A stretch of 64,000 nt of DNA from contig OZ024749.1 of the NCBI GenBank assembly GCA_964016885.1, positions 45,818,001-45,882,000 on the forward strand, written 5' to 3'. Below, piece by piece: positions 823-30,296 of the stretch. The position numbers and the translations under genes were made by a program. The notes beneath the pieces were generated by a model. It was not told where the DNA came from, ran no database searches, and worked only from the letters and a program-made list of their open reading frames with translations. Origin of the DNA: Eledone cirrhosa (taxonomy: Eukaryota). Positions within the stretch are counted from its first letter, which is position 1. Each line of letters opens with the position of its first letter.

Positions 823-823
823 T

Positions 824-890
<67 letters not shown>

Positions 891-892
<2 letters not shown>

Positions 893-1090
893 TTTTGAGT
901 TTATGTTGGTTGTATACCAACACCTCAGTATGCAGGCTGGAGCACTCGACGAAGTGCGCAGGTTGGTTTGGTTACTCCGGAGTAGTGTAAAATAAAGTTA
1001 AATAAAAGTCAAATGATTAAAATTTAGCTTCGTTTATCACTGCAGTGATAAACGAAGCTAAATTTTAATCATTTGACTTTTATTTAACTT

Positions 1091-1097
<7 letters not shown>
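891..1097. mobile_element. TA-embedded head-to-head element, family A: perfect 110-bp palindrome (988-1097) plus 97-nt tail on the left arm
   Basis: 988-1042 is the exact reverse complement of 1043-1097 (axis in cactg|cagtg). Flanked by (TA)n on both sides. The arm is homologous to 21541-21595. Confidence 0.9.
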
Positions 1098-1188
<91 letters not shown>

Positions 1189-1316
1189 AGGAGGTGAGTT
1201 TTATTGTAGTACAATAAAGCAATGCAGATATCGGATAAGAAGCACTCTACAGTTTGTAGGACTGGAGTATACATAATATATATGAGAACAAAAGATGGTT
1301 AAAGGAGTTCCATGTA

Positions 1317-1383
1317 TTTTATTATGCGCATTTCAAAAACAAATATCATCATGCAATAATATTTGTGTTTTCATCAGATAAAA
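1317..1383 (-). ncRNA. Type I hammerhead ribozyme, intact core, long stem II
   Basis: Minus strand: ttttat CTGATGA [aaacacaaatattatt gcat gatgatatttgttttt] GAAA tgcgca TA | ataaaa. Stem I is 6 bp, stem II about 15 bp, stem III self-complementary (atgcgcat), AUA cleavage triplet. Confidence 0.8.
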
Positions 1384-1491
1384 CAGGAGGACATGATATG
1401 AAGGCTAAAAAACACTTGTGGATAGTTCAGTTTTAAATTTAAAACTGAACTATCCACAAGTGTTTTTTAGCCTTCATATCATGTCCTCCTG

Positions 1492-1559
1492 TTTTATCTG
1501 ATGAAAACACAAATATTATTGCATGATGATATTTGTTTTTGAAAATGCGCATAATATAA
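1492..1559 (+). ncRNA. Type I hammerhead ribozyme, mirror copy, slightly degenerate
   Basis: ttttat CTGATGA ... GAAAA tgcgca TA atataa. One extra A after GAAA and one stem I mismatch relative to 1317-1383. Confidence 0.7.
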
Positions 1560-1591
1560 TACATGGAACTCCTTTAACCATCTTTTGTTCT

Positions 1592-1753
<162 letters not shown>

Positions 1754-2048: not shown

Positions 2049-2551
2049 GTTCGTCTTCATGCATTGGCACCAAGACCAAGCTCCGCCTGTACAATAGCAT
2101 TGCGCTGCCGACAGAGCTTTATGCGAACGAGATTTGAAAGAGTACGGCAAATATAGAAAGACGGCTGAACGTTCTCCACCAGCGGTGCCTGCGAAAGATC
2201 CTTCGTATGTCCTGGCGCGAACGAGTGCGAATCGAGGAGATCCTGCGGAGAGCCGAGTCGTGGACGGTGCAGAGAGTGGTCACGGAGCATCGGTGCACTC
2301 TGGCTGGGCATATTCTACGTCTTCCAAATGGACGGCATTCGAAAATAGCGATCAATTGGACTCCGGCTGGCGGTAAACGGAGGCGGGTATGCCCAAGGAT
2401 CACCTGGCGACGAACGTTCCCGAAGGACCTGATGGCAGCCATCATCACCTAGCACGGGCTCGAAAAAGTGGCAGCTGATCGTGACCGTTGGCGAGAACTA
2501 AACTGCTCGATGCGCCGAGCGGCGCCGAAGAATCTAAGACCAAGACTAAGA
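2049..2551 (+). mobile_element. 5'-truncated RTE-clade LINE, C-terminal end of RT ORF plus short-repeat tail
   Basis: Reads through stops as [20 protein letters not shown]...[31 protein letters not shown]...LAGHILRLPNGRHSKIAINWTPAGGKRRRVCPRITWRRT...ADRDRWR, the typical RTE C-terminus. Ends in ctaagaccaagactaaga and sits in (TA)n. Confidence 0.9.
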
Positions 2552-21423: not shown

Positions 21424-21540
21424 AACAAACGATAAACTAACAGGCTTTCAGCTGAAAATACTAGAGTGTAGATATTTTGTGTATTCTCTACTAATATATT
21501 CAGTAAATTATGTAACAGTATGTATATATATATATATATA

Positions 21541-21760
21541 AAATAAAGTTAAATAAAACGTCAAATGTTTAAAATTTAGCTTCGTTTATTACTGCTATAT
21601 ATATTTCAATGACAGCCATCTTTGGCTGTGACCTCTTCAGGCAGTCCGAATTAGTGTGGTATAGACAAGTACATATGTTGTTGAGGTGTATAATTTTGTC
21701 AATACTCTGATATGCCCAGTTCTTGGTTGGGTTGTTATTTCACTGAGTAACTGGAATCTT
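21541..21760 (-). mobile_element. Family A element retaining the ribozyme
   Basis: 21541-21595 matches the palindrome arm at 990-1043 with about 3 differences. Bounded by (TA)n on both sides. Confidence 0.8.
21591..21645 (-). ncRNA. Type I hammerhead ribozyme, canonical core
   Basis: actgc CTGAAGA [ggtcacagcc aaagat ggctgtcatt] GAAA tatata TA | gcagt, immediately followed by AATAAA and ~45 nt to (TA)n. Confidence 0.8.
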
Positions 21761-30204: not shown

Positions 30205-30296
30205 TCTAGCGAGACAGATTCGAACCATCGACCTAAGGACGACAACCTCGTATAAAAAACTTTAGTCTTCCGCTCTACCAAATGAGCTATCGCGGG
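30205..30296 (-). pseudogene. Intron-containing tRNA-Tyr-derived pseudogene (anticodon reads AAA)
   Basis: CCCGCGATAGCTCATTTGGTAGAGCGGAAGACTAAAG-[19-nt intron 30241-30259]-GTCCTTAGGTCGATGGTTCGAATCTGTCTCGCTAGA follows the eukaryotic tRNA-Tyr(GTA) scaffold. Mismatches in the acceptor stem and a T6 run in the intron. Confidence 0.85.

What the first reader, a model, noticed from the sequence alone, without database searches (positions are those of the whole stretch)
988..1097. Perfect palindrome whose axis coincides with the predicted ribozyme cleavage site
Seen: the homologous copy at 21591-21645 has a hammerhead predicted to cut at AUA|gcagu. The 110-bp palindrome here contains only sequence 3' of that site, and its axis is the first GC of gcagt (cactGCagtg). 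Inference: both arms were copied to the exact 5' end of a self-cleaved RNA and joined through a 2-nt GC overlap, or by cDNA snap-back. This would be a genomic fossil of in vivo ribozyme cleavage.
Basis: partly seen in the sequence, partly recalled or inferred. Interest (0 to 1): 0.88.

Follow-up and report, generated by a model that had tools for sequence, protein, structure and literature searches.

The report
Mirror retrotransposon ends at ribozyme cut
Two ends of a very common Penelope-type jumping gene sit here back to back, a known layout, but they meet exactly where the element's own self-cutting RNA is predicted to cut, and 15 other insertions in this genome meet at or within a few bases of that site, which likely means a small share of copies were made from RNA that had cut itself in the living animal.

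Summary
The 110-bp palindrome is real and perfect. That layout is published. Its axis lies at the predicted cut of the element's dimer-type hammerhead. Genome-wide tests: single 5' ends show no outstanding spike there (21 rows, against 14 at -74 and a similar rate at -19; 0 of 93 unselected arms), and about 30% of arms begin near -168. Paired ends do cluster: 11 of 28 near-symmetric junctions fall within 1 nt of the cut, 8 without overlap; arms ending at the cut have a partner ending there in 13 of 28 loci, against 1 of 24 at control sites. 66 of 67 pairs have one long and one short arm. Best reading: two-ended reverse transcription, with about 1% of events likely templated by ribozyme-cut RNA. 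No RNA evidence exists. The scan noted single cases of this before on other DNA of this and other genomes.

The parts
889..1043 (-). Long arm: 3' part of the pseudo-LTR starting at the predicted hammerhead cut (988-1043) plus the roughly 100-nt tail (889-987)
   Evidence: 154 of 155 letters identical to copy L051 from its cut site on; in L051/L140 this tail runs on into the reading frame
1042..1097 (+). Short arm: same pseudo-LTR part, from the predicted cut to the family's second 3' end (no tail)
   Evidence: the same end occurs in many other copies
1042..1043 (.). GC dinucleotide shared by both arms; axis of the palindrome; first two bases 3' of the predicted cut
   Evidence: only 2 nt of self-complementarity at this position
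823..890 (.). (TA)n target, left flank
1096..1172 (.). (TA)n target, right flank
21539..21760 (-). Solo short copy of the same family, beginning near the main 5' boundary (about -165)
   Evidence: L001
21591..21645 (-). Type I hammerhead with palindromic stem III; predicted cut between 21596 (A17) and 21595 (G1.1)
   Evidence: core and stems; core elements each kept in 77-82 of 87 unselected arms; cleavage not tested

Best explanation
This is a head-to-head insertion of a Hydra-clade Penelope-like retrotransposon, likely made when both ends of a cut in (TA)n primed reverse transcription, and its two cDNAs likely ran off an RNA whose 5' end had been made by the element's own hammerhead. Shown: asymmetric long and short arms, (TA)n flanks, the family's reading frame, the hammerhead motif, and an excess of junctions with both arms ending at the predicted cut. 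Inferred: one cDNA starts at the tail end and one at the pseudo-LTR end (the two start sites measured in vitro for a related element); both stop at the RNA's 5' end, mostly near -168 (likely the transcript start) and in about 1% of pairs at the ribozyme cut; the two 3' ends are then joined, here through their terminal GC, elsewhere bluntly or with short templated fill. A double hammerhead would cut both of its strands at once, which would explain paired ends even if two RNA molecules are used (untested).
For: 66 of 67 short-gap pairs carry one long and one short arm. Among those 67 pairs, 28 are near-symmetric and 11 of the 28 have both ends within -1..+1 of the cut (binomial against uniform about 1e-6); among the 14 symmetric junctions with no overlap, 8 are there. 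In searches that did not require a partner, arms ending at 0 or -1 had a partner ending at -1..+4 in 13 of 28 loci, against 1 of 24 at control positions -74, -19, -2 and +3 (Fisher p 6e-4; classed by eye). 16 such loci with different flanks. The site offers only 2 nt of self-complementarity; the adjacent 8-nt TA palindrome has 2 clean symmetric junctions and a 6-nt site at +18 has 4. No stem-I fold-back that keeps the ribozyme loop among 97 rows, while stem-II fold-backs occur (L149, L152). Both arms share a variant seen in only 19 hits genome-wide. Two start sites and extension of both strands in vitro: PMC11167929.
Against: No RNA data: no RNA holder was available. Single-arm ends are not outstanding at the cut: 21 of 97 rows at 0 and 20 of 93 at -1, against 14 of 42 at -74 and 11-12 family arms at -19 in the first 100 of 210 rows. 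0 of 93 unselected arms end there. 8 of the 28 cut-site arms have a partner reaching far upstream, so many are not from a fully cut template. The uniform null is crude, six pairs were corrected by hand, and gaps above 60 nt were sampled only by about 25 pairs. In the related anole element the ribozyme was dispensable in vitro and no RNA reads ended at the cut. Such ribozymes are slow in vitro.
Confidence: 0.65

Rival explanations
1. No cleavage: reverse transcriptase pauses at the folded but uncut ribozyme (monomer or double hammerhead), and the stalled cDNAs are joined or one snaps back.
For: Structure-linked ends exist: the 3' strand of stem II (-13 to -21) collects many arm ends. Uncut RNA was the main substrate in vitro. 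Several cut-site arms match up to -1.
Against: A pause before stem I predicts ends near +5 (1 symmetric case, L115); a pause at the stem III duplex predicts -1/-2, yet 11 loci have an arm ending at 0 with a non-A base next, and in L070, L074 and L106 the -1 match lies in templated fill. At -19 the partners do not end at the same place.
Confidence: 0.15
2. Ordinary 5' truncation joined by microhomology; the GC axis coincides with the cut by chance.
For: Junctions occur all along the pseudo-LTR and favour self-complementary words. One other GC site (-21) has 1-2 symmetric junctions. This copy does have the GC overlap.
Against: 8 of 11 cut-site junctions have no overlap, and no other position has more than about one such case; partner test 13 of 28 against 1 of 24. 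Chance can still explain this one copy.
Confidence: 0.1
3. DNA-level origin: a longer head-to-head pair lost its centre later, for example after endonuclease cuts in the two internal TA tracts next to the cut site.
For: The family targets (TA)n and an 8-nt TA tract abuts the cut. Instability of long palindromes is general knowledge, recalled.
Against: This predicts joins mostly inside the TA tract, where 8 nt of complementarity are available; 2 clean cases there against 11 at the cut. Arms are not being homogenised in general (9 shared against 52 unshared private variants in 30 pairs).
Confidence: 0.08
4. Fold-back artefact of sequencing or assembly.
For: No long read spanning the locus was seen.
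Against: The palindrome stops at the element's two biological 3' ends, the flanks differ, the asymmetry follows the 66 of 67 rule, and a 58-nt contig holds the junction.
Confidence: 0.02

Closest known systems
Endonuclease-bearing Penelope-like elements with an inverted 5'-truncated pseudo-LTR and one-sided tail (PMC3846280, PMC8557442; passages read)
   Same: Head-to-head arrangement, palindromic junction, tail on one arm only, (TA)n targets, hammerhead in the pseudo-LTR.
   Different: Here the tail is about 100 nt, not 30-40; the passages read do not link junctions to the ribozyme cut; PMC3846280 explains the palindromes by self-priming, whereas 66 of 67 long-plus-short pairs favour two primed cDNAs.
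Hydra clade of C-terminal GIY-YIG Penelope-like elements (PMC8557442; passages read)
   Same: RWK and DKT motifs, CxCx5C linker, C-terminal GIY-YIG, (TA)n insertion, hammerhead.
   Different: No tree was built; identity with any named family was not tested (its supplements were not opened).
Poseidon of Anolis carolinensis in vitro (PMC11167929; parts 1-2 of 4 read)
   Same: Two internal reverse-transcription start sites that define the tail; both target strands cut and extended; predicted dimer.
   Different: There the ribozyme was dispensable and no RNA-seq reads began or ended at the cut; here a minority of genomic junctions sit at it.
Minimal and palindromic-helix-III hammerheads of metazoan Penelope-like elements (PMC4209133; parts 1-2 of 4 read)
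   Same: Type I, short stem I, long stem II, extra base after position 9, palindromic stem III needing a dimer.
   Different: That paper had no in vivo evidence of cleavage.
R2 elements with HDV-like ribozymes (PMC3774820; start of abstract in search listing only)
   Same: Ribozyme cut site corresponds to the 5' junction of inserted copies.
   Different: Different ribozyme and element class; in R2 it is the rule, here about 1% of pairs.

Membership tests
EN+ Penelope-like element | Reading frame with reverse transcriptase and C-terminal GIY-YIG endonuclease after the pseudo-LTR | tested here: met
   L140: broken frames with YRDD and DKT motifs; GIY-YIG Pfam PF01541 E 6e-4, below the curated cut-off; no Pfam RT hit in the 5 pieces
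EN+ Penelope-like element | Pseudo-LTR with inverted 5'-truncated copy and one-sided tail | tested here: met
   66 of 67 pairs; 25 pairs among the first 100 hits
EN+ Penelope-like element | Target-site duplication | tested here: inconclusive
   Flanks are (TA)n on both sides
Hydra clade | RWK, DKT, CxCx5C linker, (TA)n targets, hammerhead | tested here: met
   against the description
Hydra clade | Phylogenetic placement of the RT | not tested
Type I hammerhead (dimer type) | Core CUGANGA, GAAA, UH with stems I and II | tested here: met
   stem I changes on both sides between families in this genome
Type I hammerhead (dimer type) | Palindromic stem III, unstable as monomer | tested here: met
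   monomer stem III costs 3.4 kcal/mol, duplex of two copies gains 3.2
Type I hammerhead (dimer type) | Match to an Rfam hammerhead model | tested here: not met
   no hit at gathering score or at E up to 10; published minimal variants were found with pattern descriptors instead
Type I hammerhead (dimer type) | Self-cleavage at the predicted bond | not testable with these tools
   junction statistics are indirect
Non-LTR retrozyme | Non-coding tandem repeats with a hammerhead in each unit | tested here: not met
   copies are dispersed solos and inverted pairs of a coding element

The most novel reading that the evidence does not exclude
Head-to-head Penelope junctions are a genomic map of RNA 5' ends: a dimeric element protein primes two cDNAs from two fixed start sites, the double hammerhead formed in that complex cuts its RNA in vivo, and both cDNAs run off the cut and are joined. 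This gives genome-scale evidence that Penelope hammerheads cleave in the germ line and that cut linear RNA, not only circles or uncut RNA, is integrated.
Probability: 0.5. Interest if true: 0.7.

Novelty: new variant of a known kind. Interest (0 to 1): 0.5.

Why it matters
Whether Penelope hammerheads cleave in vivo, and whether cut RNA is ever reverse-transcribed, is open in the papers read (PMC4209133, PMC8557442, PMC11167929). The paired-end test used here needs only a genome assembly and can be repeated in any family, with dead-core families as controls. The long-plus-short rule gives direct genomic support for two-ended priming as the origin of the inverted Penelope layout. It also suggests cleavage is a minor route, not a required step.

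Tried and rejected
Rfam found no hammerhead. Plain folding of longer stretches did not give the ribozyme fold. No RNA holder listed, so no test of RNA ends. Raw DNA reads on 21545-21750: two Hi-C runs laid 0 reads (no test); two RAD runs showed strand-changing joints mostly towards the upstream boundary and none with both ends at the cut, but RAD samples few loci, so this is no test either. The -19 control also caught other hammerhead families; only 100 of 210 rows were listed and 16 candidates fetched. A search in relatives was not possible. A possible excess of substitutions beside the cut (about 76 rows at -1, 70 at -2, 43 at -3, 17 at +2, 28 at -75; by eye) could not be separated from TA-tract mutability. 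Stem-I-primed fold-back followed by loop loss was considered and rejected because the loop-retaining form was absent. One search was mis-anchored and cut; one search was only used to find long copies. Paper searches listed no title or abstract start reporting Penelope junctions at the hammerhead cut; subscription papers and all supplements were not seen.

Full report
Positions below count from the predicted hammerhead cut: 0 is the G of GCAGU, negative numbers are upstream in the element's RNA sense.

Observation. 988-1097 is a perfect 110-bp palindrome with its axis between 1042 and 1043. Its arms match the copy at 21539-21595 on the minus strand at 94.7% and begin at position 0. That copy carries CUGAAGA, a long stem II, GAAA, a palindromic stem III and a 5-bp stem I. 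Stem I changes on both sides between hammerhead families of this genome, which fixes the register of the cut. Rfam does not detect the motif. The left arm continues to 889 through about 100 nt of tail and matches copy L051 at 154 of 155 letters; the flanks are (TA)n. Both arms share that one variant, which has only 19 hits genome-wide, two of them these arms.

What it is. A 19-letter word of the arm has 6,120 exact hits in the 3.0-Gb genome, and 25 head-to-head pairs lie among the first 100 listed (about 1,500 pairs by extrapolation). [quoted passage not shown] These fit the Hydra clade as described in PMC8557442 (passages). Inverted truncated copies with a one-sided tail and palindromic junctions are published (PMC3846280 passages; PMC8557442 passages). 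The palindrome as such is therefore ordinary.

How the pairs form. Of 67 distinct short-gap pairs (27, 15 and 26; one duplicate dropped), 66 have one arm with tail and one without. Arms of a pair differ by 1.4%, arms of different pairs by 3.9%; 9 private variants are shared and 52 are not (30 pairs). PMC11167929 (parts 1-2 of 4 read) shows a related protein cutting and extending both target strands from two internal start sites that define the tail. I infer that both ends of one cut prime a cDNA, one from each start site, and that the two 3' ends are joined.

Where arms end. In an unselected sample (95 of the first 100 hits fetched; 96 rows, 93 distinct arms) 28 arms begin at -166 to -170 and none at -1 to +1. 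The -168 boundary likely marks the transcript start (inference; PMC6765202 passages place the start in the upstream pseudo-LTR); it is also an 8-nt self-complementary word. Searches for arms broken exactly at one position gave 21 junction rows of 97 at 0, 20 of 93 at -1, 7 of 51 at -2, 2 of 26 at +3, 14 of 42 at -74 and 11-12 family arms among the first 100 of 210 rows at -19; all counted by eye, and each pattern loses rows with C at its first letter.

The paired signal. Of the 67 pairs, 28 are near-symmetric; 11 have both ends at -1 to +1 (binomial against a uniform 43-position null about 1e-6). The next site, a 6-nt self-complementary word at +18, has 5, and the 8-nt TA tract 3. Of 14 symmetric junctions with no overlap, 8 are at the cut (six pairs corrected by hand where the script's walk failed). 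In the partner-blind searches, arms ending at 0 or -1 with an inverted partner had that partner ending at -1 to +4 in 13 of 28 loci, further downstream in 7 and upstream in 8; at control positions it ended within 5 nt in at most 1 of 24 (Fisher p 6e-4; solos, internal deletions and other-family rows left out). Sixteen loci, including this one, have both arms at -1 to +4 and different flanks: GC overlap, blunt joins, short inserts and templated repeats that start from position 0. That is about 1% of pairs. This is what a physical RNA end at 0 predicts.

Rivals. Microhomology cannot explain the joins without overlap, though it could explain this one copy. Fold-back on stem I should leave loop-retaining forms; none is among the 97 rows, while stem-II fold-backs are seen. 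A pause on uncut RNA predicts +5 or -1/-2 rather than 0, but is not excluded. Later loss of the centre of a longer palindrome predicts TA-tract joins. An artefact is unlikely: the arms end at the two biological ends, and a 58-nt contig holds the junction (possibly the assembly's own sample).

Against. There is no RNA evidence. Most templates were clearly uncut. In the anole element the ribozyme was dispensable and no reads ended at the cut, and these ribozymes are slow in vitro and need a dimer (PMC4209133, parts 1-2 of 4 read; energies). The statistics rest on one family in one assembly and partly on counts by eye.

Novelty. Element class, layout and ribozyme type are known. The paper searches listed no report of Penelope junctions clustering at the hammerhead cut; R2 gives the precedent for another ribozyme (PMC3774820, listing only). 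bioRxiv 10.64898/2026.07.22.740005 was read in part 1 of 5 only. No supplements were opened. Earlier notes of this scan describe single cases, one small excess and the two-start idea on other DNA; they are unchecked leads, not support. Verdict: real, a known kind of insertion, with fair statistical but indirect evidence that a small class including this copy was templated by ribozyme-cut RNA.

Noticed in passing
window 1286-1595: Second head-to-head palindrome (perfect core 1331-1544) of another family with its own hammerhead (stem I 7 bp, different palindromic stem III); its axis at 1437|1438 lies well upstream of its predicted cut.
   Followed up: partly
family-wide, position -166 to -170: 28 of 93 unselected arms begin here, often with a partner ending elsewhere; candidate transcript start of the pseudo-LTR promoter.
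   Followed up: partly
L192 (G000:C2:42437639-42438781): Head-to-head pair whose arms come from two different hammerhead families, short arm from one and long arm from the other, with a short AT run between; either a two-RNA event or two adjacent insertions.
   Followed up: partly
L138, L139, L223, L224, L236: Five internal deletions end at the predicted cut and remove part of the ribozyme; in L223 and L236 only one arm of the pair has it. Possible template jumps across cut RNA.
   Followed up: partly
family-wide, positions -1 and -2: More substitutions in otherwise intact copies next to the cut (about 76 and 70 rows) than at -3, +2 or -75 (43, 17, 28); two pairs carry different substitutions there in their two arms. 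TA-tract mutability not excluded.
   Followed up: partly
L149, L152: Fold-back junctions at ribozyme stem II that keep the loop.
   Followed up: partly
rows; L198, L239, L244, L251, L255, L256: Several other hammerhead families share the core and TA stem III but differ in stems I and II.
   Followed up: partly
window 30205-30296: tRNA-like Rfam match (36 bits) with a 20-nt insertion, minus strand; possibly a SINE head or intron-bearing tRNA.
   Followed up: no
window 2050-2550: GC-richer stretch between microsatellites that looks like the 3' end of another retroelement (seen; resemblance recalled, not tested).
   Followed up: no
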